DNA of 64,000 bases from Promethearchaeota archaeon (GTDB lineage: Archaea; Asgardarchaeota; Lokiarchaeia; Sigyniarchaeales; SOKP01): the NCBI GenBank assembly GCA_019057865.1, contig JAHLWP010000017.1, positions 1 through 64,000 on the forward strand, given 5' to 3'. The notes beneath the pieces were generated by a model that had not been told where the DNA came from, made no database searches, and saw only the letters and a list, made by a program, of their open reading frames with translations. Positions 32,212 to 56,710 of the stretch are shown here, piece after piece. The translations under genes were made by a program, and so were the position numbers. Position 1 is the stretch's first letter, and the number at the start of each line of letters is the position of its first letter.

Positions 32212-32629
32212 AAATCTATTACTTTAATACCTTTTTCCAGAAGTAAATATCCATTTCCAGTTATACTATAAGCAAGTACACTTATTTTCTCAAGAACTTC
32301 AAATGTTGCTTTATTTTCTTTAATGGCATTTGATAATTCATCCAATAACCAATTAATTTATTAAAGAATTTTGAATCAATAGTAATTGGTTGTTTTCCTT
32401 GTCTTGCTATTGCAATACCTTTTAAAATTGTATTATAACAATTTACTAACATAAAGTGCATAAAAATTAAATGTTGATTGAATTCAATATTATAGATTCT
32501 GTTAATAATTGAATGGATTGCGCTTAAATAATAAAGAGATTCATCCATATCTGCAGTAACTTTCATTTTCTCAATAACAAATTGAATCTTTTTAATAATT
32601 CTATCTTTATTTTCTCCTGATAATTTCAT
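32208..32629 (-). pseudogene. Hypothetical protein with a frameshift near 32349
   Basis: Alternative frame continues LLDELSNAIKENKATFEVLEKISVLAYSITGNGYLLLEKGIKVIDF*. Confidence 0.55.
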
Positions 32630-32727
32630 CTTATTACTCCCATGTTTTACCAATTTGTAACGCATCTTGACCCTTACTTAAAGAAGTATCTTGAATAATT
32701 TCATCGTTAATCTCGCCTGTTCCTGCG

Positions 32728-33102
32728 TTAAATAATGGTTGTGGCGATTCTGTTTTGGTTTCCAAAAAAACTTACTGTTATTCCCTCACTCATTGTTAGA
32801 TAGGTAAGCTCTCCTGCGCTTATTGGGGGCTTTCTAATATCAGAGAACTCTTTTTTTCTCGAATGTATTGGTTTTACAAAATTTAGTAGAGTATTAATCA
32901 TTCTTCTTCCTAATTTGCTTATTTCATAGAAGGAATATTTATCAGCAAATTCATTTCTATTATAAAAGTTGTATATTAATCCGTATCGCATAAGAGTTTT
33001 AATATGATGGCTTAAGTTATTCTTAACTATTTCAAGCTCTTTACTTATTTCAATAAATGATTTAGGTCCTTTTTTTAATAAATAAATTGTAATAAGAGAG
33101 AA
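32728..33102 (-). pseudogene. 5'-truncated ArsR-type winged-HTH regulator
   Basis: Frame extends upstream of the track ATG (IYLLKKGPKSFIEISKELEIVKNNLSHHIKTLMRYGLI) but reaches a stop with no start codon. Confidence 0.6.
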
Positions 33103-33206
33103 TTAGATATTGAAAAAAACTAAAAAGTCTTTTAAAGGAAAAGAATCCAAAAAGAAAAAAAAAAAATTTGGGATATTTTATAGATAACGCCACTTATTTT
33201 CATTTA

Positions 33207-35168
33207 TCAAATCAATGTTTCCAAAAGTGCGATCAATGCATCAATCATCGCGCATAACTCTTGCTGTGTTTCTGGATCGATTATCCAATCGTTCCTAGGA
33301 TTGCCACCGAGAGATCCATCACATTTTGGACGAATATCATGCTTTAATTTGAGTATCGCTTCTTCATACATACCATTATTTATCAATTCGATTACTTCAT
33401 TGAGTTTTTCCGAAAATGCGGTCTTACGTTGATTAGCATTATTTATAAAAACCTCATCGGGTAGGTTTTGTATATAATCGTTAACCTCTGGAAATTGGCT
33501 GGAAACAGGATAAAACCACACTTTATCCATTGGATTCGATTGAAAACCAGTGAACTTGCTACTGTACGCATCATAATTTCTTCTTACAAAACCCCAAGCC
33601 CATGGAAAGACTTCTTCAATCAGTCGTTGTTGAATGTTATCATATAAAACCTTTCTTTCTGCTGGATTTATAGTAATTAAGGCTTCTCCCATCCATTCCT
33701 GTACTAAATCATCATCTACTTGCGCGAAATTATTTACAGAATTCTTGGAGAACAATGAATTTATAATATTGCTCGGATCGATATAATCTGGAACCCAACC
33801 TAACCAAAAAAGTTCTAACATATCTCTATGATATGGTGGCATATCAAAGAGCCTATACATAAACTCTGGCCATGTCATACCATCATCTACCACTGTGATT
33901 CCAATTTTTCCGAGATTATCTTGTAATAAAACCAACATGTCCTCTCGGAAAGTATTACCTCTATTATATGTATAATTAAACGTGGCAAATGGAGCGGTTT
34001 CTTCTTGATCTACCCAATAAGTGTCATCGTACACGTTAAAATCTACACCGAATCCCATGGATTGCATGACTTGTCTTGCTCGTGTAAGATTTAGGATGGG
34101 GACATTAAATGACCAGTTGGCATACGTAACACCTAATGGAATAGGAGATTTCAACCTTACAGCCTCTCCTCCTAAGAGCTCATCAATCATATATGTATAA
34201 TTAATGGCATAAGAAATCGCTTCTCGAAATGAAACATTTATAAGCCTGTTGTTCATCCCAAGAAATCGAATTGTTGCGTCTTGTCCAGCATCTACAAGGG
34301 TGATATCTGGATGATCTCTGAATTCTTGGAGCCTTGAAATATCGGGAGTTTTTATGAAGTCAATAATCCCATCTAATAATGCTTGATTTCTCATATAGCT
34401 ATCTGGAATAATTGAAAATGTTAATTCGTCAATATATGGAGCACCCGCCCAGTAATTTTCATATGCGTGCATGGTGACTTCAACACCTACCTCATAATTA
34501 TCATATACAAAAGGACCCGTCCCAACTAAATCTCCAGTTGCCCTATCAATATAATTCTCTGGAGGTGTTGATGCAGGTGACATGATTCCTGATCCACTAA
34601 AACATAATAAGGCTTCAAATGGCGCAAATGGTTTATTTAACACAAATTTTACGGTATAATCATTGTCAACGATCTCTACCTTGTTAATTATCGGTGTTCC
34701 ATCAGGCCAAAGATATAATGTAGAAAACGGGGTTGTAGGTATCTCTGGTGGTAATGTACCATCTATGTTCATAAAATATACCAATCTATCAAAATTCCAT
34801 TTAACGGCTGTAGCATTGAACGGGGTTCCATCATGAAATGTGACACCCATTTTAAGTGGAACTGTGTAATTTAACCCATCTATTGACCATGTGCCAAAAT
34901 CCGATGCTAATCTCGGGATGGGGGCAAGTTCAGGATCGAATAAATCGTAGGCATATAACGTTTCGACAACTTGCTCAATAACATCAGATGAAGAACTATC
35001 CCACGCACTATGTGGATCTAGATCTCCAGGACCAGAATAGGTACCATATATTAGTTTAACAGGATCTTGAGTTTGACCACGTACTTCTGTTGAAATATAA
35101 GAAAGCATTGAAAGAGTTAAAAGAGTGAGAACAATAATCGAAATTCGAATTTTTTTCATTTTTTTCAC
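33207..35168 (-). CDS. Family-5 (peptide/nickel) ABC substrate-binding protein with a C-terminal helical extension
   Basis: Signal peptide; DLDP, FHDGTPFNATAVKWNFDR, GTGPF, WVPDYIDP. Confidence 0.92.
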   Translation of the reverse strand: MKKMKKIRISIIVLTLLTLSMLSYISTEVRGQTQDPVKLIYGTYSGPGDLDPHSAWDSSSSDVIEQVVETLYAYDLFDPELAPIPRLASDFGTWSIDGLNYTVPLKMGVTFHDGTPFNATAVKWNFDRLVYFMNIDGTLPPEIPTTPFSTLYLWPDGTPIINKVEIVDNDYTVKFVLNKPFAPFEALLCFSGSGIMSPASTPPENYIDRATGDLVGTGPFVYDNYEVGVEVTMHAYENYWAGAPYIDELTFSIIPDSYMRNQALLDGIIDFIKTPDISRLQEFRDHPDITLVDAGQDATIRFLGMNNRLINVSFREAISYAINYTYMIDELLGGEAVRLKSPIPLGVTYANWSFNVPILNLTRARQVMQSMGFGVDFNVYDDTYWVDQEETAPFATFNYTYNRGNTFREDMLVLLQDNLGKIGITVVDDGMTWPEFMYRLFDMPPYHRDMLELFWLGWVPDYIDPSNIINSLFSKNSVNNFAQVDDDLVQEWMGEALITINPAERKVLYDNIQQRLIEEVFPWAWGFVRRNYDAYSSKFTGFQSNPMDKVWFYPVSSQFPEVNDYIQNLPDEVFINNANQRKTAFSEKLNEVIELINNGMYEEAILKLKHDIRPKCDGSLGGNPRNDWIIDPETQQELCAMIDALIALLETLI

Positions 35169-35373
35169 TTTTAATTTTTTTCATTTTTTTTTTTTTAAAT
35201 TAATGTATCAATAACCTGATCTATGATCGGTTATTTGCCTAATCTATGGTTATTTCTGGAAATAGCCATTTCACATTTTTATTAAGCCAAAATAATTAAT
35301 CATTAGCTTATATTTAAAATTTTTGTTATATTTGTTTTACCTTTTTTAAATTGCCAGACATGATAAAATCATC

Positions 35374-35775
35374 TCAACTCTTCTGATTTTTATCTTTTAA
35401 CATGTTGAAGTAGCGTTTCAAGCGATTTGGTCCTTCTTGGATCAGATCTAATGAAATGTCTCGGCCTTTCCTACTCTCATAAGATGCCATATCAAGTACA
35501 TTTTCTTTTACCACTTCAGTGCTAATATCATTATGTGGATCATCTAAATAACTGGGCAATCCTTCAGAAAGCCAGTGATATCGTCTTGCTTTCTTGATTT
35601 TACCATCAAGACCTTGTTGTATTATTCCCCAATTATTTTCAGAAACAATCATTAAATGATGATATATATTAAATCCATCTTGAACAGCAGCATCATAATA
35701 TTCTTTATAGTATTTAGCGAGTTCTCTATCAATTTTTTTGACAGAGTATTCATACAATCCAATCTTGAATGGCAC
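35374..35775 (-). pseudogene. Internal fragment of a DUF763-family gene
   Basis: AAVQDGFNIYHH...WGIIQQG...ARRYHWLS; both ends missing. Confidence 0.65.
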
Positions 35776-36029
35776 AGAATTAAAAGTTGTTTTATTTATA
35801 GCTAAGAAATATATCTGTAGAAATTGTGGAAGAGAAGTTTAAGGCTCAAAATAAAATTTCTTTTTTTATTAATTTTATTATCTTTTTTTATACTTTTTTT
35901 GATTAAAATACTTTAGTAAATAATAAAATGATTCTAAAACATCTTAATTAGATTTTTAACTATAATATAATTTACATTGTTAATCAGAAATTAAAATCTT
36001 CTTTTGCGGTGTGCTTATAGATTCCTCGA

Positions 36030-38623: not shown

Positions 38624-39691
38624 ATGTCAGATGATCATGAAAATCATGAAGAAGAAGATAAATCCATAGTTGATGCATTATCGACATTAGGCTGGGTGGA
38701 GGAAAAAGAAGAAGAGGAGGGATCACCTCTAGGAACAGAAGACAATCTCATGGAACAACTTAATCTCTTCATGAATGAAAATAAGAAACTAACTGAAGAT
38801 TTAAATGAAAAAAATAAAACCATAAAAGAATTAAAGACAAACGTACAAGAACTCACCCAAAAGATTGAAGATAATGCAACTCAAGGTCAAGCCATTCAAA
38901 AACTTTATGAAACAATTGAAGATAAAAATGATGAGATTGAAAAATTAAATAAAATTAAAACTGATCAAATAGAAAAAATTAAGGATTTTACTTCTCAAAT
39001 TGAAACGATTAATTCTGAACAAACTCAAAATCAGGATTTATTAGAACAACTACAGGAAAAGGAAAATAAAATTAAAGATTTAAAAGAACAACTTCAATAT
39101 CTTGAAACTGATACCATACAAAAATCTAAGTTTGAAAAAGCTGAAGTTCTTTTAGAAAGAAAAGATGAAATAATAACAGAAAAAGAAAAAGCTATCTTTG
39201 ACATTGAAAATTCGTTAAAATCTGCTAATCAAAAAATTCATGATCTAAAACGGCAACTTGAAACTTTTTCTTTATTGAAGAAAGATTTAGAGAAAAAAGA
39301 TGAACGAATTAAACAATTAGTAGTAGAAATTGAAGAATTGAAACAAAAAAATATAACTAATTCAGCGCTTATAAGTCGGCTTGAAGAACGATTAGAAGAA
39401 GCTCAAGAAAAATCGGGTCATATAACTGGTAAGTTTGAAGTAGAATTAGCTCATATGAGGAATATAATTGATGGAAAAGACTCAGAAATTAAAGAATTAA
39501 AAGAAAAAGCATTTGGGATGGAAAATAAATTAAGTGAAACAGAAAAAATAGAGGAAAAATTATTATCTGACATTCAGGATATTAAAGATGACAAATTAAA
39601 ATTAGAGTCTGAATTAGAAAAGAAAGATCAAGAATTAGTAGAATTAAAGAAAAAAATTAAACTAATGCGAAGAGATTTATCAAAATCGTAA
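38624..39691 (+). CDS. Long coiled-coil protein
   Basis: E/K/L/Q heptad-rich over about 310 aa after an acidic N-terminus. Confidence 0.75.
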   Translation: MSDDHENHEEEDKSIVDALSTLGWVEEKEEEEGSPLGTEDNLMEQLNLFMNENKKLTEDLNEKNKTIKELKTNVQELTQKIEDNATQGQAIQKLYETIEDKNDEIEKLNKIKTDQIEKIKDFTSQIETINSEQTQNQDLLEQLQEKENKIKDLKEQLQYLETDTIQKSKFEKAEVLLERKDEIITEKEKAIFDIENSLKSANQKIHDLKRQLETFSLLKKDLEKKDERIKQLVVEIEELKQKNITNSALISRLEERLEEAQEKSGHITGKFEVELAHMRNIIDGKDSEIKELKEKAFGMENKLSETEKIEEKLLSDIQDIKDDKLKLESELEKKDQELVELKKKIKLMRRDLSKS

Positions 39692-39733
39692 TTATTCTTG
39701 ATGCTCTTCATTCTTTTAAAAAATTAAAGAAAC

Positions 39734-39875
39734 TCAAAATAAATTTTTTGAGTTATGCAAATATTATTGAGGGTACTGTGATTGTGAGATTATTTTTAAT
39801 GCAAAATCTCGGTTATTAAAATATTGAATCTATTTTCCTAAATATTTCACATATTAAGCTTTTTTTAAAAAAGAT
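39734..39875 (+). repeat. Imperfect direct repeat of 49285..49428 (decayed DUF2695 gene 3' end plus junction motif)
   Basis: Translates QNKFFELCKYY*GYCDCEIIFNAK; about 80-85% identical by hand alignment; ends in TAAGCTTTTTTTAAAAAAGAT. Confidence 0.9.
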
Positions 39876-40151
39876 GAACCGCACTATTTGGTATCAGTGG
39901 AGTATGATAAAAATCTTAGAATCTACTTCTTTTCTATAAGTGGTCTGCTATTAAGAGGAGAGAATTTTGTAATAACTCTCAAATTAAGGAAGAAGATTAA
40001 AAAAAATACAGTGAAAGAGTACAGCATTCCATAAATTCTTCAAAACCAAGATAAACAGTTTGATATTTATCAAACTATAGTAAAAATATTTAAATATAAG
40101 AGAATTATAAATTTAGATAAGGCAAAATGAATTAATATAATTAGGGAAAAA

Positions 40152-40520
40152 ATGATAATACCAGAAATATGTTTAGCCTGCAAATGGGCAATTGGAAATG
40201 ATTGTCGCTATGATAATGATTGCTGGAGTCTTTCTCCAAGTATCACCTGTTTTGAGCCTAAGTTTGATTCCTCATATTCTAATCCAAGAAATTTTCTAAA
40301 CCAATGGCTAATAGTAGAAACTATCATGGAAAATTTGGCAAAAGTAATAACTAAAAAAAATTCAATTGATTATCAATTAAAGACTCAACTAAAAGCCATT
40401 ATAGAACATTATTATGCTGTAAAAAAACTTAAAAAATTATATAAAGCACTCCAAAAAGATTTTGAAAAATACTCTCATATTTTTAACAAAAGCCTTAAGA
40501 TTCTAACATTGGAAGACTAG
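40152..40520 (+). CDS. Hypothetical protein with Cys-rich N-terminus
   Basis: CLACKW...C...C...CFEPK; island context. Confidence 0.55.
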   Translation: MIIPEICLACKWAIGNDCRYDNDCWSLSPSITCFEPKFDSSYSNPRNFLNQWLIVETIMENLAKVITKKNSIDYQLKTQLKAIIEHYYAVKKLKKLYKALQKDFEKYSHIFNKSLKILTLED

Positions 40521-40649
40521 AAAAAAATAAAGGAATTACACCCTTAACCATTATTAATTGTAGAAGAAAATTAAAAAAAGACTTATATAATCAAGAACAG
40601 CAAATTTTTATAGAAGAAAAGAAAAGAATTCCGAAATGAAATAGAAAAA

Positions 40650-40901
40650 ATGTTTGATTACTTCGTAGAAATCGGCATTCTTGAAGAAGCAGAAGAAAAT
40701 GGGGAATCCATATTTCGAATAAAAGATCCCGAAGTCATATCTTTTAACCAAGTTGAACTAATAGAATTTCTAAATCAAAAAAGGTTGGATGCCATCATGA
40801 ACAAGTGCCAAGAAGCCAATGATAAACGCATTGAGGAGTTTAAAAAGGATCCTAACATTACCTTTCATGAGCCATCAGTAAGTAAAAAAAGAAAACAATA
40901 A
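40650..40901 (+). CDS. Hypothetical small protein
   Basis: 83-aa ORF with ATG start. Confidence 0.5.
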   Translation: MFDYFVEIGILEEAEENGESIFRIKDPEVISFNQVELIEFLNQKRLDAIMNKCQEANDKRIEEFKKDPNITFHEPSVSKKRKQ

Positions 40902-40916
40902 TATTTCACTTTGCAA

Positions 40917-41198
40917 TCAATAAGTACTGTGAAAATCTCCTTCACATACCTTATTTTCTTCACGCTTTAATTTTTTCAATAATTCATAATAGTTAGGAGT
41001 GGGATATTCCTCTAGGATTTTTGACCTATTTATGAGTATAGATCTAATAGCTTCCCTATTAGGCACATTCTTCATTATTAATAAGTGAGTAGTGGGAATG
41101 TAATGCTTAAAATCCCAACCATTATCCAAAATAAATTGTACATAAAAGGGGTGGCTCAATGGTAATTCTTGATTAAAAGTGACAAGTAAAAACCACAA
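40917..41198 (-). CDS. Hypothetical small protein
   Basis: 93-aa ORF downstream of the TFB fragment; start uncertain. Confidence 0.45.
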   Translation of the reverse strand: MWFLLVTFNQELPLSHPFYVQFILDNGWDFKHYIPTTHLLIMKNVPNREAIRSILINRSKILEEYPTPNYYELLKKLKREENKVCEGDFHSTY

Positions 41199-41236
41199 AA
41201 TTTACTAATAACTCAAGTTTGTAATGTTAGATATTT

Positions 41237-41704
41237 CTAATGCTCCCGTATCCGTGCTCGTATGGTAGCGTCAGTGAGTTCCGATACCTTTCCCAGTTCT
41301 ACCTGTGTAATCTTTATATTATTCTTTCTATACACTAAATAAATTGAAGCTGCCGCATACCCACAAGGATTCTTCCCATTAATAACAGAGGAAGGTAGGT
41401 TTTTCTGTATAAACTGGATAGCCAAGTGTTCCACATACGATTCCAATCCAAGTTCGGATACAAATTTCGGAATGTAGTCAACAGGATCTTTTTGATAAGA
41501 GCTTAAGCCCAACTTTTTTACTATAAGAGTAAAGCACTTTTTAATATGCTTAAAGGAATTAGTGGCATTATTTTTAATAGGACTCGTATTTTCTGCTATT
41601 TCCTTAAGAGTAATCGGATACCTTTCCTTCTTACAACAATAATATAGACAGGCAGACGCTATGCCGAGTATACTTCTTCCTCTCATCAACTTTTTCTTAA
41701 GCAC
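41237..41704 (-). pseudogene. 5'-truncated TFB paralog (cyclin repeats only)
   Basis: RGRSILGIASACLY, GKNPCGYAAASIY, ITQVELGKVSELTDATIRAR; upstream frame closes with no Zn ribbon. Confidence 0.75.
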
Positions 41705-41855
41705 CTGTAAATATAATCGTGCTGCCGAATTATAGATAGTGTCGCTACTACACCAGAAGATGATCTTAGATTCAAATTTTGCATAAATATAGCTCTAAAT
41801 CATTTATATTATATTTTTACTAAAGGATAGCTTTAAATGTAAAAATAACTTCAAG

Positions 41856-44318
41856 ATGCATAATCCAAAATCAAAAAAAAAGAAGATTTTTATGAGACTA
41901 CATTTAAATAAAGTTATTACAATCTTAATACTATTCCTTTTATGTGCAAATATTATCATTCCAATGTCTACCTTTCTAGATAATAATAGATCAATCTTTT
42001 TGACGGATCATTCGCAATCCTACTCAAATATCAGTAACGGTTCTGGAGCTCTAACTTTAAAGGTTGGTGCAGCTTCTGGCCCTCGTGATCTTGATCCGAT
42101 CAATTCATGGGATAGTTTTTCAAATGATGTGATTGAACAAGTAGCAGAAGGTCTATTTTCTTACAATTATTCTGATGTTAACTTACCCCGAATAAATTTA
42201 CTCGCCCAAAGTTATTGGTGGGAAAATAATGTGACCCTTCGAGTACAATTAAGGCAAGGCATTCAATTCCACGATGGTACTTCATTTAATGCCACAGCTG
42301 CTAAATGGAACTTCGATAGGATAAATTATTTTATAAACGCTACAGGAACCCTTCCAGGAACTGTTCCGATTGCTCAAACGGAATCATTATGGAGGCTACC
42401 AAATGGCGAACCGATTATCAATAATACCGCGACTGTTGGTGATTATAATATTACCATCACTTTGAATGGTGTCTTTTCACCTTTCTTAGATTTACTATGC
42501 TATACAAATGCTTATATGCTTTCCCCAACCTCAACTCCGGCTACGGACTGGATAGTTCTTACAACAGGAGACTTGGTTGGAACCGGTCCTTTTACGTATG
42601 TTTCTTATACACCAGATGTAGAAGTGAGATTTACACGATTTGATAATTATTGGAGAGGACCAGCATATTTCTATACCTTGATTTTTGTTATCATCGAAGA
42701 TGCAACAGCCCGAAGTAATGCTATGCTAACTGGAATGATTGATTACGTATTTAGGCCTTTACCTTCTCTATATGATATTTTTGAAGCAAATACTACCATT
42801 ACAGTAAAAAGGTTTACCGAAGAAACTGGAAAGGCCAGCTTGATTTACCACTACCTTGGTATTAACAATCATAGAATTAACAAGACTATGAGACAGGCTA
42901 TGGCTTGGGCTTTTCCTTACGATTATATGCTTGAGGTAATGTTAGAAGGATTTTTAGGAATACGAGCTTATTCACCAATTTCTCCTGGTTTCGGGCCAAT
43001 TTATAATGAATCTGTTAATTATCCTTACTTTGATTTAGCGAAGGCAAGGCAAATATTACTTGATGCCGGAGTTGTTTCTGGTTTAACTGCAAATAATGAT
43101 ACTACCGGTCCCGTAGCAGATGCATGGAAAGCCGCTGGTATTGCCACCTATAACTATACCGCTAATATTGGTAATGCTTTTAGAGAAGGTCTGTTGGTGG
43201 TTCTCCAAGACGCTTTCAGCCAAATCGGTATTACAGTAACGGACAATCTAATGACTTGGTCAGAATTCCTTGACATCTTACTAAATCCAAGTAGACATGA
43301 TGAATTAGAACTCTATTTCATAGGTTGGTTCCCTGATTATCTCGATCCTTGGAACATGTTAGATCCATTATTTAATCCTGCCTCAGCATCGAATTCTGCA
43401 CAAGTGAATGATCCATACCTAACCGCCTTGTTGCAAGCTATGCTAGAAGAACTTGACCCAGATGTTAAAAATGACCTGGTTAAACACGCTCAATGGTATT
43501 TTGCTGAAAATAGCTTCCACCTATATGCATATCACCCCACTATTACTGCTGTTCATGCTGCAAACTTGAAAGGAGTAGCTTATAACGCTATGGATAAATG
43601 GCAGGCATATCCTATCTATCGTGAGTTAGGACCTATACCCGGTCCTTTTACATTACTATCTACTGCAGAAGATCCGGATGAGGATGGTGAATTTGATTTA
43701 GTATGGTCAGATGCTGAGGGTGCTGTGAACTATTCAATATATCAATATCATAATTTTATAACCGAAATTAATGGAAGTTTAATACCTTTAGCTACTGAAA
43801 TTACTGATCTTACAATACATTTAAGTGGATATGCTACAGGTACCTATTATTTTATTGTAGTTGCCCATAATGAGTATGGAGATACGCTTTCCAATTGTAA
43901 GGAGATAATAGTAGATCTTCCTCTTCCAGGCAATTTCATACTATTATCTAATGCGGGAGATCCTGATGATGACGGCGAATTTGATTTAGTATGGTCAGAT
44001 GCTGAGGGTGCTGTGAACTATTCAGTATATCAATATCATAACTTTATAACCGAAATTAATGGAAGTTTAATACCATTAGCTACTGAAATTACTGATCTTA
44101 CAATACCTTTAAGTGAATATACTAATGGAACTTATTATTTTGTTGTAGTTGCCCATAATGAGTATGGGGATACCCTTTCCAATTGTATTGAAGTAGAGGT
44201 CGCTATTCCTCCTACAAAGGGAGAACCAGAGATTCCAGGATACAATTTATTATTAATTGTTGCTGCTTTAGGTGCCACCATAACCCTGCTGCTTAAAAAA
44301 AAGCATAGCACAATATAA
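41856..44318 (+). CDS. Family-5 ABC substrate-binding protein with two FN3-like repeats and a Loki-CTERM-like anchor
   Basis: FHDGTSFNATAAKWNFDR, GTGPF; C-terminal EIPGYNLLLIVAALGATITLLLKKK. Confidence 0.92.
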   Translation: MHNPKSKKKKIFMRLHLNKVITILILFLLCANIIIPMSTFLDNNRSIFLTDHSQSYSNISNGSGALTLKVGAASGPRDLDPINSWDSFSNDVIEQVAEGLFSYNYSDVNLPRINLLAQSYWWENNVTLRVQLRQGIQFHDGTSFNATAAKWNFDRINYFINATGTLPGTVPIAQTESLWRLPNGEPIINNTATVGDYNITITLNGVFSPFLDLLCYTNAYMLSPTSTPATDWIVLTTGDLVGTGPFTYVSYTPDVEVRFTRFDNYWRGPAYFYTLIFVIIEDATARSNAMLTGMIDYVFRPLPSLYDIFEANTTITVKRFTEETGKASLIYHYLGINNHRINKTMRQAMAWAFPYDYMLEVMLEGFLGIRAYSPISPGFGPIYNESVNYPYFDLAKARQILLDAGVVSGLTANNDTTGPVADAWKAAGIATYNYTANIGNAFREGLLVVLQDAFSQIGITVTDNLMTWSEFLDILLNPSRHDELELYFIGWFPDYLDPWNMLDPLFNPASASNSAQVNDPYLTALLQAMLEELDPDVKNDLVKHAQWYFAENSFHLYAYHPTITAVHAANLKGVAYNAMDKWQAYPIYRELGPIPGPFTLLSTAEDPDEDGEFDLVWSDAEGAVNYSIYQYHNFITEINGSLIPLATEITDLTIHLSGYATGTYYFIVVAHNEYGDTLSNCKEIIVDLPLPGNFILLSNAGDPDDDGEFDLVWSDAEGAVNYSVYQYHNFITEINGSLIPLATEITDLTIPLSEYTNGTYYFVVVAHNEYGDTLSNCIEVEVAIPPTKGEPEIPGYNLLLIVAALGATITLLLKKKHSTI
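43641..44187 (+). repeat. Intragenic tandem duplication, period 288 bp (96 aa)
   Basis: GAATTTGATTTAGTATGG at 43689 and 43977; near-identical DGEFDLVWSDAEGAVNYS...HNEYGDTLSNC. Confidence 0.95.
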
Positions 44319-44678
44319 AAAATCTAAATTTTTTTTTTATTTTATCATATAAAAAGCTTTCTAACACGAGATAAAAAAATTATAATTAATATTTAATTAT
44401 TCTACTTAACCTAAAATTATTATTTAAATATAATGCCAGATAATAAAGTGCCTGAACCAGTTGATGGACTCAAATTCATAGACACGCATTGCCATTTACC
44501 TTTATTGTTGAAGAAGAGCAAAATATTGCTATAAATGATGAGACTTCTAGTAAAATCATCAATAAAAAAGAGAGCAGTCTACAAATCAATAAATTTGAAA
44601 GAATCATAATGGATATTGGAATCCTTATTAAAGGAGGATATAAAATTGATTGAAAGGTAAATTCAGAATCCGATTTCA

Positions 44679-45763
44679 ATGAAAATTCCTTTGGAAAAAA
44701 CGAAGGAAAAGGTAAGAAGATTGAAAATTATTGGAGAATCGATATCTGGTATACCTGAACTACAATCAGGTGCAGAAGTTCCTGTTAGATTGATGCCAGA
44801 AGGTACACAATATGAAAAGGGAGATATCATAGTATTTTATAGAGATGAAATAAAAATCATCCATCGAGTTGAGTATATCCAAGAATCTAAGGGAAAGATA
44901 TTCTATGTTACTACAGGATTAAATGCTGAAACCAATCAATATGTAGACAGTAGTCTTGTTTCCCAAGATGATGTTATTGGAAAGGTTGATCACTCGAAAG
45001 AGGCTTACCTAGAACTTAATGAAATGATAGCAAGAAGATATGTACCATTCATAATAGCTTATAGAATGACTCATAATTTAGAAGTTGAATTAACGAATTT
45101 TATGGAGAAGAAAGAAGCAGTATTACAAAACGCTTTAAATATAGTAATGAAGAAGGGTAAAAAAGAGGATTACAATTAATATCATCTAGAAATTCGAATA
45201 AGGAATTAACTTTTGAGGAATTTACATCAGCATATAAAGAAGCATGGATTAAAATGGGAAAATATGGAAATGCTAAATTAACATGGAAACATGTTGGTAT
45301 TAACAATGATGGTTGTGGTAAAACATTTATAAACAGTTACAATAATCTTAGAGATAATATTAGTAATTGTCCAACATGCGATAGTCCATGGAAAAATCAA
45401 AACAAAACTCATAAAATATTAGAAGTTCTATTCGGACAGGAGTTTGGAGAAGAAGTTTATTTAAGAGATATTAAAGAAATCATAGATAATATTGAAACCA
45501 ATCCCAAATACAAAAAATATAGGAGACAAATGGATGTATTCCAGATGAGGTTAGATGATAATGCTAAATTGAATATTAAAGATAAAAATGGAAATTATAT
45601 TAAGTTAGCAGTTGAATCTCAGGGATCTCAACATTACGAAAATGATAAAGGTTGGAAAGCAATCTTGTTTTTTACAATTTTGATGGTAAAGAAAGAATTA
45701 AAAATAATTTTATCTAAATTTCTTAAAAAACAAAATGAATTATTGTTTTTCAACTCTCTTTAA
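44679..45763 (+). pseudogene. Remnant 3' part of a large protein: S26 signal-peptidase-like domain, Zn ribbon, PD-(D/E)xK nuclease; frameshift in the A6 run at 45159..45164
   Basis: GES...GDIIVF...IIHRV...TTGLN...VIGKV; one added A gives GKKRGLQLIS...KLTWK...CGKTF...CPTC...RLDD...LAVESQGSQHY. Confidence 0.65.
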
Positions 45764-46074
45764 AATTATATTATACTAAAAATAGTTGAATATAATAATT
45801 TCGATTGGCATTTTAATTTTAAAGCATAATGAGAAAAAAAATTAAATAAATATATTTTAGTTGCTGAAATTCAAAAGCTCAGAATTCCTTGCTCATTAGA
45901 ATTTAGATCCGAAAAGTTTGTTTATTTTCTATATCCGTATGACATTAATGAGAGGATATGATTTCTCAAATCTAAATTAAACGATATTGATAACTATTTT
46001 AAAAATTATCAAAACAAACCCATAAAAAATGATCAAGTAATAAGTGATTCCTTCTTTCTAAATTGTATATATAT

Positions 46075-46178
46075 TAAGCTTATTTTTAAAAAAGATAAAA
46101 ATAAATAATTGATTTTGATTTTCGGGGCTATTTCTCACGCCATTGGATATCACACTGACCACAGAGATATTTCTTTCC
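46075..46178 (-). repeat. Stranded copy of the gelsolin gene 3' end plus downstream 53 bp (repeat of 49406..49509)
   Basis: GKKYLCGQCDIQWREK* versus GKKYRCGLCSVEWREK*; non-coding part about 90% identical. Confidence 0.9.
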
Positions 46179-46358
46179 ATCTTTAATCAATATTCCTCTG
46201 GAAATAGTACTGTTGTTCTTGATCGATCTGCTTCTGTATATATAAGAATAAGATGAAATAATTCTTAAATCATGTTCTAATGAATAAAGATTCTCCTTAA
46301 AATCTTGCTCTGGAATCTCTCCAAAATCTCCCAATAAATGCCTTTTAAGGCAATTCAT
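46128..46358 (-). pseudogene. Chimeric ORF: truncated plasmid/ICE-type RHxxGDWG protein joined to the gelsolin 3' relic
   Basis: FCQFVMNCLKRHLLGDFGEIPEQDFKENLYSL...RIISSY, then a switch to GKKYLCGQC. Confidence 0.6.
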
Positions 46359-46474
46359 TACAAATTGACAAAAAGAGGGTTCTTTTTCTATTCTTTTATG
46401 TATTTGAAGAATAAAAATAATTTTACCATAATCAAATAACTTTAGGTTTTCTATTTGTCTTAAGTAATAACTTT

Positions 46475-46789
46475 TTAAAGCTCTCTCTTTCTTATAATAG
46501 GTTCTTTTTGTGGTAAAAGGTCGTATTCATCTAAGAGCATAGCATAATTTTGCATTTCTTCCTTACCAAAAAAATTTAAATAATCCTTATATTCTTGCTC
46601 TGTTTCAAAAGATGGTGGTCTCTTGCGTCCAGAATAACATAAGGCAGAATCTATTATATGTCTCTTTAAATCTGCTTTTTCTCTTGTAAAGTGGCGTATG
46701 TCATATCTTCCTTTATAGATATTTCCATCTTCAAATTTAACTTCAAAAAAGGTCTTCAAATATCCATATTTATCTTCTTTGGTCAACAT
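46475..46789 (-). CDS. Mobile-element protein, possibly LPD25-like
   Basis: GYLKTFFEVKFEDGNIYKGRYDI resembles my recollection of the LPD25 motif; needs HMM confirmation. Confidence 0.45.
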   Translation of the reverse strand: MLTKEDKYGYLKTFFEVKFEDGNIYKGRYDIRHFTREKADLKRHIIDSALCYSGRKRPPSFETEQEYKDYLNFFGKEEMQNYAMLLDEYDLLPQKEPIIRKREL

Positions 46790-46828
46790 TTGTGTTGTTA
46801 TCTTTCAGTTAGCTCACCATATTTACAA

Positions 46829-47005
46829 TCAATAATTCAGATCATTATCACATCCAGAACAATGATAACATACCTCATATAACTCTTCCTCTGAAAGTTT
46901 CTCAAAGCAATCTCGACAAAAACAACAACAATCATCATACGATCCTTTATACTCCTCAAATTTTCCACATTCCTCACATTTTTCAACCCTAACTTTCCAA
47001 GACAT
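46829..47005 (-). CDS. 58-aa metal-binding microprotein with 10 Cys (not in the ORF track)
   Basis: MSWKVRVEKCEECGKFEEYKGSYDDCCCFCRDCFEKLSEEELYEVCYHCSGCDNDLNY; GGTGAG SD upstream. Confidence 0.65.
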   Translation of the reverse strand: MSWKVRVEKCEECGKFEEYKGSYDDCCCFCRDCFEKLSEEELYEVCYHCSGCDNDLNY

Positions 47006-47024
47006 ATATCAAATCTCACCAATT

Positions 47025-47237
47025 TTACTTAATATCATAATAGGCTTCTTGTAAAAAGAAATCAGTATTTCTCTGAATATAATTATCTATTATCTCTGGA
47101 ATTCTAATCTCCAAATTTTCAATAAGATCTTCGTAATCTACTCCTTTAACTTCGGCAAAATCTTTTATCTTTTCAGTAGGAATCTTAATAACAAAATTTA
47201 CATTTACTCTAGAAGTATCATTCTTCTTCCCATTCAT
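47025..47237 (-). CDS. Small virus/plasmid-like hypothetical protein
   Basis: Starts 2 bp after the stop of the upstream small ORF. Confidence 0.6.
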   Translation of the reverse strand: MNGKKNDTSRVNVNFVIKIPTEKIKDFAEVKGVDYEDLIENLEIRIPEIIDNYIQRNTDFFLQEAYYDIK

Positions 47238-47239
47238 TC

Positions 47240-47404
47240 CTAATTATCCCTCTTCTTTCTCATTACTTTTACAATTTCAAAAGAATTACTAACATATTCT
47301 CTTGGTAATTCCACATTTTCGGCTTCCATAATGGCTTCCTCTTCACTTTCTGCCTTAAAAGTATATTCCAAATTTATATTTATAATAACGGTAAATTTAG
47401 CCAT
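47240..47404 (-). CDS. 54-aa virus-like protein with an AESEEEA motif (not in the ORF track)
   Basis: MAKFTVIININLEYTFKAESEEEAIMEAENVELP...; GGAG SD upstream. Confidence 0.6.
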   Translation of the reverse strand: MAKFTVIININLEYTFKAESEEEAIMEAENVELPREYVSNSFEIVKVMRKKRDN

Positions 47405-47595
47405 TTAATCATACTCCGTACAACGCCAATTAGGATTAAATTTAACATCCGTATTTTTTACTATTTTTATTTTTTAGAAGATTTTAACCTAACTCCCATA
47501 TATTGATGTTCAAAACGGTCTATAAATATGATTTTTAGAGGGAAGACTTAAAAAAAGAAACGACAAAAAAAAAAAAATAATTATTTTTTCATTTC

Positions 47596-48270
47596 TTAAA
47601 AAGGAAAATAATAGATCCCGATGGTTATAAAAAATCCTACTATATAAGAACCAATAAAAAGAGTTAATCCTGAATAAATGAATTTGTAATCTGAATTTCT
47701 TGCTCCATGAATAACAAACAGACCAAATGAAATACTTAATAATATATTGAAGAAAGATTGAAGAACTGCTATTAATTTTTGGAAATCTGTAGTACCTGGT
47801 TCAAGATGTAACAAATATTTGAACATATGAGCAATTCCCCAGTTTAGAGTAATTAAACTCAATCCATAATAAATCAACCATAATATAGATGCTGCCAATA
47901 AATACAATCCAAATGCTTCCTTATTAATACGTGAATACATAAAAAGTAAGAGACTGGCTACGAAAAGGGGAATAGTAGTGATTAGTCCTATAAATATAAA
48001 ATAATTCACAACCATAGTCCTTTCTTCCTCAGTTAGGTATACATAATAAAAACCTTCTGGCAAAAAAAGAGGTATAAATCCACAAATCATACCTAGTAAT
48101 GCAAACACACTCAAACAATCAAGTTCATGAGAGCTTTCTCTATGTTCCTTAGCTGAAAGAAAGATAAATAAATATAAAATGAAGTTAATTATAGTACCTA
48201 TAATCAGAGGTAATCCTAAATGCATAAAATACTCGGGATCATATTGTAAATATTCAAATTTAAGAGTCAT
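47596..48270 (-). CDS. Multi-pass membrane protein (about 6 TMs)
   Basis: Hydrophobicity pattern. Confidence 0.75.
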   Translation of the reverse strand: MTLKFEYLQYDPEYFMHLGLPLIIGTIINFILYLFIFLSAKEHRESSHELDCLSVFALLGMICGFIPLFLPEGFYYVYLTEEERTMVVNYFIFIGLITTIPLFVASLLLFMYSRINKEAFGLYLLAASILWLIYYGLSLITLNWGIAHMFKYLLHLEPGTTDFQKLIAVLQSFFNILLSISFGLFVIHGARNSDYKFIYSGLTLFIGSYIVGFFITIGIYYFPF

Positions 48271-48432
48271 GATTATCTTCTTTTAATTAATTGAAGGGAT
48301 TTCTTAGTTTAATTTATTGAGTGATATAATAAAAAAAAATATATTAAGATTCCCCTAGGTTTTTTTTATTTTACTATTGTTATATCCGTCTTTCAAGGAA
48401 ATTCCCAATATAAGTTATCAGATGGTAGAACA

Positions 48433-48732
48433 GTGTTAGAATGGTGGAAGTATGGTAGTTCCATTGCAAGGAAGGTTCATTCATCAAAGATGTTTTCAGA
48501 TAGATTAAAAAGTTTTAATGAGCGAATAGAGTATTTAGTTGATCATAATTATGATTATGAAGCTTGGTTGAATAAATTTTATAGTAATAATTCACCCGAT
48601 TGGATTGCAAAAGGCAAGATTCAAATGGATCAATATCAGTGGATGGTGGACAAATTAAAACACTTGCGTTATTATGTTCACTTAGAGGATATTGATCTTG
48701 TAAGGGAGTTGTGGGGAATCTGGACACCATAA
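48433..48732 (+). pseudogene. Probable orphan C-terminal tail of a larger protein
   Basis: Frame extends upstream (QGNSQYKLSDGRTVLEWW) with no good start; weak similarity to the tail of 18..1976. Confidence 0.4.
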
Positions 48733-48802
48733 AATTTAAGGTCTCGATAAGATTATATATCTAAATTATTTTATTTATTTAGTTATCTGTTTTTTTATTG
48801 TT

Positions 48803-49378
48803 ATGAAGAAGGAAAGAGCAATCATAATTAAAGATCCACGGCTTCAGAAAATTAGAAATGAATTGAGAACCTTACTAAAGTTATGGAAGGAAGATATAGT
48901 AAATTCTCTTAGGGTTAAGGCTTCTGAGTATTCTGAAGGGGGTGATGACCAAAAATCTAGAGATACTCGAAGGAAGATCTCAGAATTAGATTTGTTACTA
49001 AAATTATCCATTTGTACCTGTCTACATTGTGGTCATAGCGATAAGGATATGATATATATCCCTAAAATGAAGCAATGGCTTTGTATTGAATGTAATTCGG
49101 AACGCGTATATTTTGAGAAATTGAGAAGTGAGCTTCGAACAGATATGAACATGGATGACATACGAGAATTTTTGGACAGGTTGATGGGAGATGAGGGCAT
49201 CGGTCTAACACGCTTCGGGTCGAGATGCCATGGGTTTACTTACTCTAAGAGGATTCTGGATAAGATGGGAATCGATAAGGGGATTCAGGATAAATTTTTT
49301 GAGTTATGTAAATACTATGGAGGGTATTGTGATTGTGAGATTATTTTTAATGCAAAGCCTCAATTATTACAAGAATGA
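48803..49378 (+). CDS. Zn-finger protein (paralog of 1988..2821) with C-terminal DUF2695 domain
   Basis: AIIIKDPRLQKIRNELR; CLHCGHSDKDMIY-x6-WLCIEC; GGYCDCEIIFN. Confidence 0.8.
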   Translation: MKKERAIIIKDPRLQKIRNELRTLLKLWKEDIVNSLRVKASEYSEGGDDQKSRDTRRKISELDLLLKLSICTCLHCGHSDKDMIYIPKMKQWLCIECNSERVYFEKLRSELRTDMNMDDIREFLDRLMGDEGIGLTRFGSRCHGFTYSKRILDKMGIDKGIQDKFFELCKYYGGYCDCEIIFNAKPQLLQE

Positions 49379-49458
49379 ACCCATTTTCCCAGTTTATTCA
49401 CATAATAAGCTTTTTTTTAAAAATAGATAAAAATAAATAATTGATTTAAATTTTCGGG

Positions 49459-50472
49459 TTATTTTTCTCTCCACTCTACTGAACACAGTCCGCAGCGGTA
49501 TTTTTTACCGTACATCCTCGGGTAGTCGAGTATAACATTGCTTTTATCAATACTTTCATGAATTAGATCCTTATTTTCATTCCCACATTCAGGGCATTTT
49601 CGGCGACCTTCTATCTTTTCAATAGTTATTATCGAATCATCAACTTTACCCGGTATTCCCGGCGCAGCACCAGAAGCACTTGGGGGTCTAGGTTTGGAAG
49701 CAGCAATTATATCTGCTTTTATTTCTTCTGGAGTAACCTCTCTTATTTCTGCTTTACGTTCTGGCTGAATTTCTGCTACAGCTTTATCTGCTGCGGTCTC
49801 AGGCTCTAATACAGATTCAGCACGTAATTGTACTGCATCAGATTCTTTGTAATCTACTCCTCTTTCTAGAGCTGCAAAGAACTCGGCATCATCCCCCTCT
49901 TCATAAATTGTTTCGTTTTGTAAACCAGCTCGATCGGCATCGATTTGTCTGGCCCATTGACCTGATTTTACACGTTCTTTAACATTGGAGTCCCCTCCAT
50001 GCCAAATATATACTTTGTTACCCAAATCTGCTACATAACAATCCTCTGATTCTAAGGATTCTTTAGAAAATGGAACTTGTATCATTTTCATGGTATTAAT
50101 ACCTTCAAATTCTTCAGATGAGACGCGATATAAAACATTTTTCCACTCTGAGAAACCTGCCCAATCACCGGTGCTTACATCTTTTAGTAAGGTTTTTGCC
50201 ATATTTTTTTCAACAACTTTCATTGCCCCCATAGTATTAACTAATTTTAAAAACTCAGAAGTTTCTTGATTTTGATCCACTGTAATAATTCTAGCTGCTC
50301 CCCCTCTTTCTTGATCTAATTTGCGAGCTTGAGCAGCTCCTGCAGTTTTCTCGTCTACAGAACACTTGCTCCCGATCCAAACATAAATTGTACGTTCATC
50401 ATCTAAAAGGTATGTATCTCCCGTGGAAAACACTGGTTTTTTTACTTCTTTTAGTTCCCCTTTATCAATCAA
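49459..50472 (-). CDS. Two-domain gelsolin-like actin regulator with Pro/Ala linker and C-terminal Zn ribbon
   Basis: FSTGDTYLLD...IYVWIGSKCSVDEK and LESEDCYVADLGNKVYIWHG...VKER; CPECG...CGLC. True start may be ATA at 50484. Confidence 0.9.
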   Translation of the reverse strand: MIDKGELKEVKKPVFSTGDTYLLDDERTIYVWIGSKCSVDEKTAGAAQARKLDQERGGAARIITVDQNQETSEFLKLVNTMGAMKVVEKNMAKTLLKDVSTGDWAGFSEWKNVLYRVSSEEFEGINTMKMIQVPFSKESLESEDCYVADLGNKVYIWHGGDSNVKERVKSGQWARQIDADRAGLQNETIYEEGDDAEFFAALERGVDYKESDAVQLRAESVLEPETAADKAVAEIQPERKAEIREVTPEEIKADIIAASKPRPPSASGAAPGIPGKVDDSIITIEKIEGRRKCPECGNENKDLIHESIDKSNVILDYPRMYGKKYRCGLCSVEWREK

Positions 50473-56062: not shown

Positions 56063-56350
56063 ATAAATTTACCTATTAGAATTTAATTGTTAAAATATAG
56101 AGTTCTTTTGATAATATAAAATAATCAGAATTAATTAAAATTTTTCTTTTAAATTATAAAATTTTACTCAATACATGAAAAAATAAATTATATTTATTAT
56201 AATTCTACATATATTATTTTTCATATTTAATTTAACCATGTGAATTATAGATTGAAGATAATTTTAACTTGTTAATTCAATTATGACTAAATGTTTATGA
56301 TCAGATAATTCATAATATGATATTAAGTGGCGATTATTTCTATCGATAAA

Positions 56351-56710
56351 ATTTTTTTTAATTCCTTATTGAATTATAATAAAACCTATATTATGAATGA
56401 ATTATTCAATATTAATATTTGAACAATTTTGATACTAAAAAAACTCATTCATATTTTTATTATGATCATTGAGTTAGTGATCCTATATAGGATGGTAATA
56501 TATTTATTGTGGATTGCTAATTTTCATTAAAGTTTTTTTAATTCCCCATTAAACCATAATAAAAACCAATTTAAAGACCATTTACTCAATCTTGTTATTT
56601 GAATTATTTTGATACTAACAAAATTAATTCATATTCTTTGTATGATCAACAAACACGTGATCATAGAAAGTTACCATTTAATTGAAATATTAATTTTTTG
56701 TCGTAATTTT
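56351..56710. repeat. Imperfect 180-bp tandem repeat with TATGATCA-N9-TGATC(A/C)TA palindromes upstream of the histone gene
   Basis: Gap-free alignment of 56351.. with 56531..; palindromes at 56461..56485 and 56641..56665. Confidence 0.8.

What the first reader, a model, noticed from the sequence alone, without database searches (positions are those of the whole stretch)
39734..49509. One junction repeated three times: serial insertions at the gelsolin 3' end
TAAGC(T-rich)AAAAA(T)AGAT occurs at about 39855, 46075 and 49406. The 39855 copy extends left as a decayed DUF2695 gene end (matching 49285..49428). The 46075 copy extends right through 53 bp of non-coding DNA into the gelsolin tail (matching 49406..49509). 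The non-coding part is about 90% identical, yet 7 of 10 degenerate codons for identical residues differ, so coding third positions diverged more than the adjacent spacer. Inference: at least three successive related arrivals sharing a conserved cis-acting end and diversified target-site codons, at an actin-regulator gene.
Basis: partly seen in the sequence, partly recalled or inferred. Interest (0 to 1): 0.8.

Follow-up and report, generated by a model that had tools for sequence, protein, structure and literature searches.

The report
Repeated tail swaps in Asgard gelsolin
In Loki-type Asgard archaea the end of the actin-regulating gelsolin gene is repeatedly swapped for a relative's version whenever a probable toxin-antidote gene is picked up next to it, leaving the old gene end stranded; the stranded pieces start at nearly the same codons in three related genes, which hints at a sequence-specific cut.

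Summary
The three copies are real and mark a 9.7-kb insert between a coiled-coil gene and a Loki2DGel gelsolin; most relatives have the empty site (40-90 bp gap). The incoming end is the stub of a giant (up to 14,832 aa) protein with an HNH-like tip, a DUF2695-fusion gene (probable immunity), a spacer and a replacement gelsolin end. A genome 98.6% identical in the flank shows one event cleanly: stranded native tail, 8-codon stub, DUF gene, foreign zinc-ribbon domain (AU p=0.0002). Five stranded gelsolin tails and three from two paralogous genes begin 13-21 codons from the stop, at or just before Y-[GA]-K-K; tRNA-type micro-introns sit at the same motif. No recombinase or shared far end was found, and divergence fades one-sidedly into the gelsolin body. 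Best reading (0.6): one-sided homologous recombination with a non-homologous joint at a fixed spot; a site-specific nuclease cut is possible (0.3), an eroded integrative element less so (0.2). The repeated motif is largely the gelsolin terminator of the donor lineage, not a shown att site. Two arrivals are certain, three likely. The scan noted displaced gene ends in two other Asgard genomes.

The parts
38624..39691 (+). Coiled-coil gene, left chromosomal flank
   Evidence: Adjacent and convergent to gelsolin in relatives
39692..39724 (.). Left part of the native spacer; joint to the insert at a short TAAA microhomology
   Evidence: Alignment to empty sites and to L208
39725..39878 (+). End A: last ~33 codons of a DUF2695-fusion gene (one nonsense codon) plus left half of the donor-type spacer
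   Evidence: 94/99 identical to the DUF allele of L210, 90/99 to L208, 83/99 to the intact window copy
39873..44420 (.). Cargo: 3' stub of a small gene, two small ORFs, TFB fragment (41237-41746, -), solute-binding protein gene (41856-44318, +)
   Evidence: Pfam and own-genome paralogs at 64-89%
44508..45699 (+). Broken second nuclease module (S24/S26-like domain, CxxC, PD-(D/E)XK-like motif); contains the 35-bp genome repeat at 44653
   Evidence: 79% nt identity to an intact 441-aa ORF in G045 that is followed by a small gene; repeat; nuclease class read from the sequence only
46045..46127 (.). End B spacer (clear from 46071; weaker similarity back to 46045)
   Evidence: 87% to L208; 16/26 upstream matches to A, P about 0.0015
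46128..46180 (-). Stranded gelsolin tail, 17 codons, foreign ('E') allele
   Evidence: 8-9 differences from the tails of L060 and L208; starts at the same codons as four other stranded tails
46185..48270 (-). Cargo of the last arrival: gene stub with a paralog on C55, small ORFs, 224-aa membrane protein gene
48379..48732 (+). Last ~117 codons of a giant protein; the HNH-like motif itself is missing from the stub
   Evidence: 67% to L097, 51% to the 14,832-aa ORF of G040
48803..49378 (+). Intact DUF2695-fusion gene: helical/CxxC-CxxC domain plus DUF2695; probable immunity gene
   Evidence: Pfam; N-terminal domain follows the HNH-like module at about a dozen loci; function inferred
49379..49458 (.). 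End C spacer, T-tract plus A-tract between two convergent stops
49459..50472 (-). Loki2DGel gelsolin; last ~190 nt (49459-49647) encode the swappable zinc-ribbon domain, here the native allele
   Evidence: PDB 7WHG, E 2e-159; PMC9433394
35801..35842 (+). Orphan tail of a paralogous zinc-ribbon gene, beginning at the same motif (outside the finding's coordinates)
   Evidence: also in L208

Best explanation
The site is a recombination hotspot that captures a probable immunity gene. SHOWN: in some relatives a giant protein with an HNH-like tip and its DUF2695-fusion partner lie convergent to gelsolin. Recipients gain the partner gene, a variably short stub of the giant gene, the donor spacer and the donor's zinc-ribbon 3' end; the recipient's own last 16-21 codons are left stranded at the far side. 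The same anatomy recurs at two paralogous zinc-ribbon genes. INFERRED: DNA from a relative recombines homologously in the conserved gelsolin body (one side only) and is joined non-homologously, often at a microhomology, to the recipient's tail at or just before the Y-[GA]-K-K codons. Each new arrival pushes the previous end away; deletions erode the cargo, and the partner gene is kept because it protects against the toxin. The window records two certain and probably three such arrivals. Why the joint is fixed is open: a sequence-specific break (about half of this probability) or a passive hotspot (A-rich lysine codons, loss of longer repeats).
For: Empty site in most relatives. L208, 98.6% identical in the left flank: stranded tail 1 of 48 nt from the native L058/L059 tail, 8-codon giant stub, DUF gene, foreign domain. 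Domain tree puts that allele with a distant clade; AU p=0.00016 against grouping with window and L057. One-sided gradient window/L208 in synonymous differences: last 60 codons 25/45, gelsolin body 38/252, next gene 6/381, coiled-coil 10/283. Gelsolin 3' excess at P<0.01 in 6 of 16 close pairs (not all independent), in none of the control gene ends. Stranded tails in window, L208, G018, L070, L099 and at paralogs in L266, L262 and window 35801; nothing shared upstream of them. Giant stubs of very different length. No tyrosine or serine recombinase or RT near the site or on the giant-gene contigs tested. HNH-type fold is the top class in two structure searches.
Against: The window's resident domain is the native allele beside a donor-type spacer, which needs a later back-conversion or a mosaic donor (a mosaic is seen in L079). 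Plain homology-facilitated illegitimate recombination does not predict joints clustered within six codons (P about 0.001 under a uniform model). The G018 insert is split by a contig break and ends in a gene also found 22 kb upstream of the G040 giant gene, so a very large element cannot be excluded. Toxin and immunity functions are not shown; the fold match is modest (Z 5.7, rmsd 2.7, 94 residues).
Confidence: 0.6

Rival explanations
1. Homing-like version of the best explanation: a nuclease (most simply the giant protein's HNH tip, possibly delivered from a neighbouring cell) cuts DNA encoding the Y-[GA]-K-K-[YH]-x-C-x-x-C motif; repair from the donor brings in a recoded or intron-protected allele plus the immunity gene, and the other broken end is rejoined.
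For: Eight stranded tails in three gene families start at this motif. Canonical bulge-helix-bulge 29-nt inserts interrupt the same motif in G007 and G047; in L262 the resident allele has a 27-nt insert there and the stranded tail differs at most wobble positions. One-sided co-conversion gradient. HNH-type fold.
Against: No cleavage data. Most recipients hold no intact HNH domain. Polymorphic-toxin nucleases are usually non-specific (general knowledge). No micro-intron found at this motif in gelsolin itself in 135 genomes with the pattern used. The DUF gene also sits beside a RING gene, and at unrelated places.
Confidence: 0.3
2. A large site-specific integrative element targets the gelsolin 3' end with its core near Y-G-K-K, restores the gene with its own copy (as phage 21/e14 do at icd), and has since lost its integrase end; the window holds eroded tandem insertions.
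For: Fixed start of stranded tails; near-perfect 36-44 bp direct repeats in L070 and L266; possible >60-kb insert in G018; plasmid-like small ORFs at 46.2-47.4 kb.
Against: No integrase at any filled site or giant-gene contig tested; no shared sequence on the far side of five stranded tails; replacement reaches ~130 nt upstream of the supposed core, with patches further into the gene body; three paralogous targets, in both orientations; no viral-contig relative.
Confidence: 0.2
3. Count only: two arrivals, not three. Ends A and B are halves of one earlier end, split by a 6.2-kb insertion that duplicated about 28 bp of the spacer.
For: A has the DUF end but no tail, B the tail but no DUF end; they overlap in 28 nearly identical bases and both resemble L208's single end.
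Against: B resembles A and C for another 26 nt back to the DUF stop position but at only 14-16/26 (P about 0.0015), unlike a duplication of equal age; A's DUF allele is closer to L210 than to L208.
Confidence: 0.3
4. The 46128 tail is the remnant of a separate full-length paralog, or the region is mis-assembled.
For: Six other genes in the genome end in this domain; no reads could be laid.
Against: The tail carries the gelsolin-specific spacer and is nearest to gelsolin alleles of sister genomes; the same anatomy occurs in independent assemblies; internal repeats are at most 91% identical.
Confidence: 0.04

Closest known systems
Sequential displacement arrays of toxin/immunity modules (Vibrio T6SS clusters, rhs C-terminal displacement), attributed to homology-facilitated illegitimate recombination (PMC5361080)
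   Same: One homologous anchor, one non-homologous joint, serial arrivals, toxin lost and immunity gene kept, no integrase.
   Different: The anchor and the displaced piece belong to a housekeeping actin-regulator gene, not to the toxin gene; the joint recurs at one coding motif in three paralogous families; host is an Asgard archaeon.
Integrative elements that split and restore a target gene, leaving a displaced fragment (Islander, PMC4383910, for tRNA genes; phage 21 and e14 at icd from my own knowledge)
   Same: Restored gene 3' end with synonymous differences and a displaced fragment at the far end.
   Different: No integrase, no conserved far end, replacement extends well upstream of the displaced piece, several target genes.
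Free-standing HNH homing endonucleases (intronless and collaborative homing; from my own knowledge)
   Same: Nuclease gene next to a conserved coding target, recoded or intron-interrupted donor alleles, co-conversion gradient.
   Different: The HNH-like domain is the tip of a giant surface-type protein with a dedicated partner gene; old gene ends are stranded rather than cleanly replaced; cleavage untested.
Polymorphic toxin systems (PMC3482391)
   Same: Giant protein with Ig-like and LamG domains, variable C-terminal nuclease, small downstream partner, orphan modules.
   Different: Family not in Pfam; secretion route, toxicity and immunity not shown.
Aloposons of Heimdallarchaeum (PMC8813620)
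   Same: Giant genes in Asgard archaea with the insertion site downstream of the giant gene.
   Different: Aloposons have twin 3,000-6,000 aa genes, tRNA targets and an upstream ParA/MinD cassette; here one 11,000-15,000 aa gene beside protein-coding gene ends.
Loki2DGel (PDB 7WHG, PMC9433394)
   Same: The target gene is its ortholog: two gelsolin domains, linker, predicted zinc domain.
   Different: The paper gives no function for the zinc domain and does not mention its exchange.

Membership tests
Homology-facilitated illegitimate recombination / displacement array | Homologous exchange on one side only | tested here: met
   Gradient into gelsolin body, none into coiled-coil gene
Homology-facilitated illegitimate recombination / displacement array | Non-homologous joint, often at a microhomology, with variable truncation of incoming DNA | tested here: met
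   L208, L262, window 39725; stubs from 8 to >540 codons
Homology-facilitated illegitimate recombination / displacement array | Joint position not sequence-specific | tested here: not met
   Five gelsolin tails within six codons, P about 0.001 under a uniform model; survival bias not excluded
Homology-facilitated illegitimate recombination / displacement array | DNA uptake or transfer and RadA dependence | not testable with these tools
   No experiment possible
Site-specific integrative element | Own tyrosine or serine recombinase | tested here: not met
   None in the insert or on giant-gene contigs of G040, G003, G109, G079; contigs are incomplete, so lost or unassembled ends remain possible
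Site-specific integrative element | Restored target plus displaced fragment with fixed boundary | tested here: met
Site-specific integrative element | Conserved element arm next to the displaced fragment | tested here: not met
   Five unrelated sequences
Site-specific integrative element | Excised circle | not testable with these tools
Free-standing homing endonuclease | HNH nuclease fold with conserved histidines | tested here: inconclusive
   Two invariant His in 13 sequences; best structural matches are HNH domains but Z at most 5.7; no Pfam HNH hit
Free-standing homing endonuclease | Sequence-specific cleavage of the naive allele, resistance of the donor allele | not testable with these tools
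   Only indirect: co-located joints, micro-introns and wobble changes
Polymorphic toxin system | Large trafficking/stalk region with variable C-terminal enzyme | tested here: met
   14,832-aa ORF with Ig-like, LamG, DUF2341 hits; other 11,000-13,000 aa frames
Polymorphic toxin system | Small partner gene directly downstream, orphan modules | tested here: met
   About a dozen loci
Polymorphic toxin system | Toxicity and neutralisation by the partner | not testable with these tools
   Needs expression tests
Aloposon | Twin giant genes, tRNA target, upstream ParA/MinD cassette | tested here: not met
   Single giant ORF and protein-coding neighbours; ParA cassette not searched separately
Diversity-generating retroelement | Adenine-specific differences between template and variable repeat, RT nearby | tested here: not met
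   Differences at all four bases; no RT on this contig

The most novel reading that the evidence does not exclude
A giant Asgard surface toxin whose HNH tip cuts the DNA motif shared by Loki zinc-ribbon domains acts like a homing drive between cells: the cut forces the victim to repair from the attacker's DNA, which installs a resistant (recoded or micro-intron-bearing) zinc-ribbon allele and the immunity gene, so that cell-cell conflict keeps rewriting the end of an actin regulator and favours tRNA-type introns in coding genes.
Probability: 0.25. Interest if true: 0.9.

Novelty: new variant of a known kind. Interest (0 to 1): 0.66.

Why it matters
It shows a route by which a domain of an Asgard actin regulator moves between lineages as a by-product of acquiring a conflict gene; trees of such domains will not follow the gene body. 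It also exposes a family of 11,000-15,000-residue Loki proteins with nuclease-like tips and a partner family (DUF2695 fusions) for which I found no paper. The clustered joints give a direct test: one domain, two DNA substrates. If the cut is specific, toxin warfare, homing and the spread of micro-introns in Asgard coding genes would be linked.

Tried and rejected
Integrase, serine recombinase, RT near the site: none; the genome's own integrases belong to other elements. The 469-aa gene in the G018 insert is an IS66-like transposase found in scattered copies, not the driver. DGR: rejected. I first read a 25-30 nt insert in a paralog as an insertion scar; it is a bulge-helix-bulge micro-intron candidate. 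I first suspected the 35-bp repeat at 44653 to be the att site; it lies inside the second nuclease module and not at any gelsolin joint. Viral contig scans with the DUF gene and a cargo gene: nothing. Foldseek on both models: no match at E<=0.001. Complex prediction of HNH domain with partner domain: no verdict. Micro-intron in the gelsolin motif: none found with the pattern used. Pattern search of 135 genomes found no further intact orphan tails but misses decayed ones such as G018.
Full report
OBSERVATION. End A (39725-39878) is a DUF2695 gene end with a nonsense codon plus half a spacer; end B (46071-46180) is a spacer plus 17 gelsolin codons; end C (49276-49509) is the intact DUF gene end, spacer and gelsolin tail. 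Seven of ten degenerate sense codons differ between the B and C tails, against 89% identity in the spacer. The host is a Loki-type Promethearchaeota genome of 4.26 Mb and 29% G+C. The target gene is the ortholog of Loki2DGel (PDB 7WHG, E 2e-159), whose linker is followed by a predicted zinc domain (PMC9433394).

EMPTY SITE. In most relatives the coiled-coil gene and gelsolin are convergent and 40-90 bp apart, including the genome with a 95% identical gelsolin. The window therefore carries about 9.7 kb of extra DNA. It keeps 33 bp of the native spacer on the left. The A-tract half of the motif lies behind 48 of 58 gelsolin genes, so it is best read as the gelsolin terminator (inference); the TAAGC and the bases next to the stop are features of a donor lineage.

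WHAT ARRIVES. Window 48379-48732 is the last 117 codons of a giant protein: 67% identical to an ORF of over 540 codons beside gelsolin in L097 and 51% to a 14,832-aa ORF in G040. Related tips end frames of 11,000-13,000 aa in three more genomes. The giant has Ig-like and LamG hits. Its C-terminal domain has two invariant histidines, folds confidently (pLDDT 82) and is matched first by HNH domains (Cap5 Z 5.7, Cas9 HNH, McrA): consistent, but modest. At about a dozen loci this tip is directly followed by a gene for the N-terminal domain of the DUF2695-fusion protein, the layout of a polymorphic toxin and its immunity gene (PMC3482391). The function is inferred. The window also holds a broken second nuclease module (44508-45699) and fragments of ordinary genes.

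ONE EVENT SEEN CLEANLY. L208 is 98.6% identical to the window over the left 9.8 kb. Between its coiled-coil gene and gelsolin lie the complete native spacer, a stranded tail that differs by 1 of 48 bases from the native tail of L058/L059, eight codons of the giant gene joined at a microhomology, the intact DUF gene and the donor spacer. Its resident gelsolin differs from the window's by 26-33% over the last 200 nt but mostly 2-6% (patches to 16%) before. A tree of the domain places this allele with a distant clade, and the data reject grouping it with the window and L057 (AU p=0.00016). L060, L104 and L079 keep the foreign domain without the insert, as expected after deletion between the repeats (inference). 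The swapped unit is thus the whole domain, while only the last 16-21 codons are stranded.

RECURRENCE. Stranded gelsolin tails occur in the window, L208, G018, L070 and L099. DUF genes or stubs face the gelsolin stop in six lineages. Two paralogous zinc-ribbon genes show the same anatomy: L266 (gene, giant stub, DUF, spacer, 44-bp repeat of the tail) and L262 (gene, DUF, synonymous-diverged tail), and the window has an orphan paralog tail at 35801. All eight begin at or up to five codons before the K-K of Y-[GA]-K-K-[YH]. For the five gelsolin tails the clustering has P about 0.001 under a uniform model, which ignores preferential loss of longer repeats. Canonical bulge-helix-bulge inserts interrupt the same motif in G007 and G047; similar inserts in G036 and L262 did not pass my strict test. 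Synonymous divergence in the last 60 gelsolin codons exceeds the body at P<0.01 in 6 of 16 close pairs (pairs overlap) and in no control gene end. For window/L208 the values fall from 25/45 to 38/252 to 6/381 on the gelsolin side and stay at 10/283 in the coiled-coil gene.

MECHANISM. The one-sided gradient, the variable truncation of the giant gene, microhomologies at several joints, the lack of any shared far end and the lack of a recombinase fit one-sided homologous recombination with a non-homologous second joint, the process proposed for Vibrio T6SS immunity arrays (PMC5361080). I give this 0.6. It does not by itself explain the fixed joint. A sequence-specific break is the simplest addition, and the HNH-like tip is the nearest candidate (0.3 for a specific cut; 0.25 for the full toxin-as-homing-drive reading), but most recipients lack an intact nuclease and nothing shows cleavage. 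An eroded integrative element remains possible (0.2), mainly because G018 may hold a very large insert.

THE WINDOW'S HISTORY. End C with its cargo displaced tail B: certain. End A carries a third DUF allele (94/99 to L210, 90/99 to L208, 83/99 to C). A and B may be separate arrivals (0.65-0.7) or one end split by a 6.2-kb insertion (0.3). Unexplained: the resident domain is native although the spacer beside it is donor-type; back-conversion, as in the mosaic L079, or a mosaic donor would account for it.

VERDICT. A new variant of displacement arrays, notable for its target and its fixed joint. I found no paper on it. Earlier notes of this scan report displaced gene ends at two other Asgard hotspots and nucleases paired with micro-introns in this genome; these are unchecked leads, not support.

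Noticed in passing
window 44653-44687; G000 C34:5367 and 7999, C37:38606 and 41023, C71:153278 and 156848, C75:148151 and 149651: A 35-45 bp palindrome-rich repeat with 9 copies in the genome (0 for shuffled controls); eight form same-orientation pairs around one or two cargo genes. It also lies in frame at the start of orphan nuclease modules in G045 and G063 and upstream of the radical SAM gene in L060 and L104. Possible cassette or recombination site.
   Followed up: partly
G040:C3:19347-63845; G003:C7; G109:C77; G079:C69: Open frames of 11,000-14,800 codons ending in related HNH-like tips; in G003 the partner gene faces the 3' end of an actin gene.
   Followed up: partly
L145:6370-6396, L175:5140-5167, L187:5300-5329, L262:9760-9790: 27-30 nt inserts, two with canonical bulge-helix-bulge shape, in the Y-A-K-K motif of zinc-ribbon genes.
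   Followed up: partly
L097:544-1228, L139, L211, L213, L214: The DUF gene also faces the 3' end of the RING-finger gene; these sites share their own spacer, and L097 appears to hold a second, decayed copy of the RING C-terminus.
   Followed up: partly
window 32282-35842: A second island (solute-binding protein gene, DUF763 fragment) replaces the zinc-ribbon gene that precedes the radical SAM gene in relatives; only its last 13 codons remain. Same in L208.
   Followed up: partly
window 43632-44207: Tandem 288-bp domain duplication (86%) at the C-terminus of the solute-binding protein; its N-terminal part is 89% identical to a copy on C41.
   Followed up: no
G000 C34:2405-2854: A partner-domain gene without DUF2695 faces the 3' end of a ribosomal protein S11-like gene.
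   Followed up: no
G109:C77:100876-101606: Two tandem, nearly identical partner genes follow the giant gene.
   Followed up: no
G000 C11:10261-10734: A 1,033-aa open frame with a reverse-transcriptase domain, of defence-type size.
   Followed up: no
window 56346-56648: 180-bp-period repeat between the proteasome beta and histone genes, also in L208.
   Followed up: no
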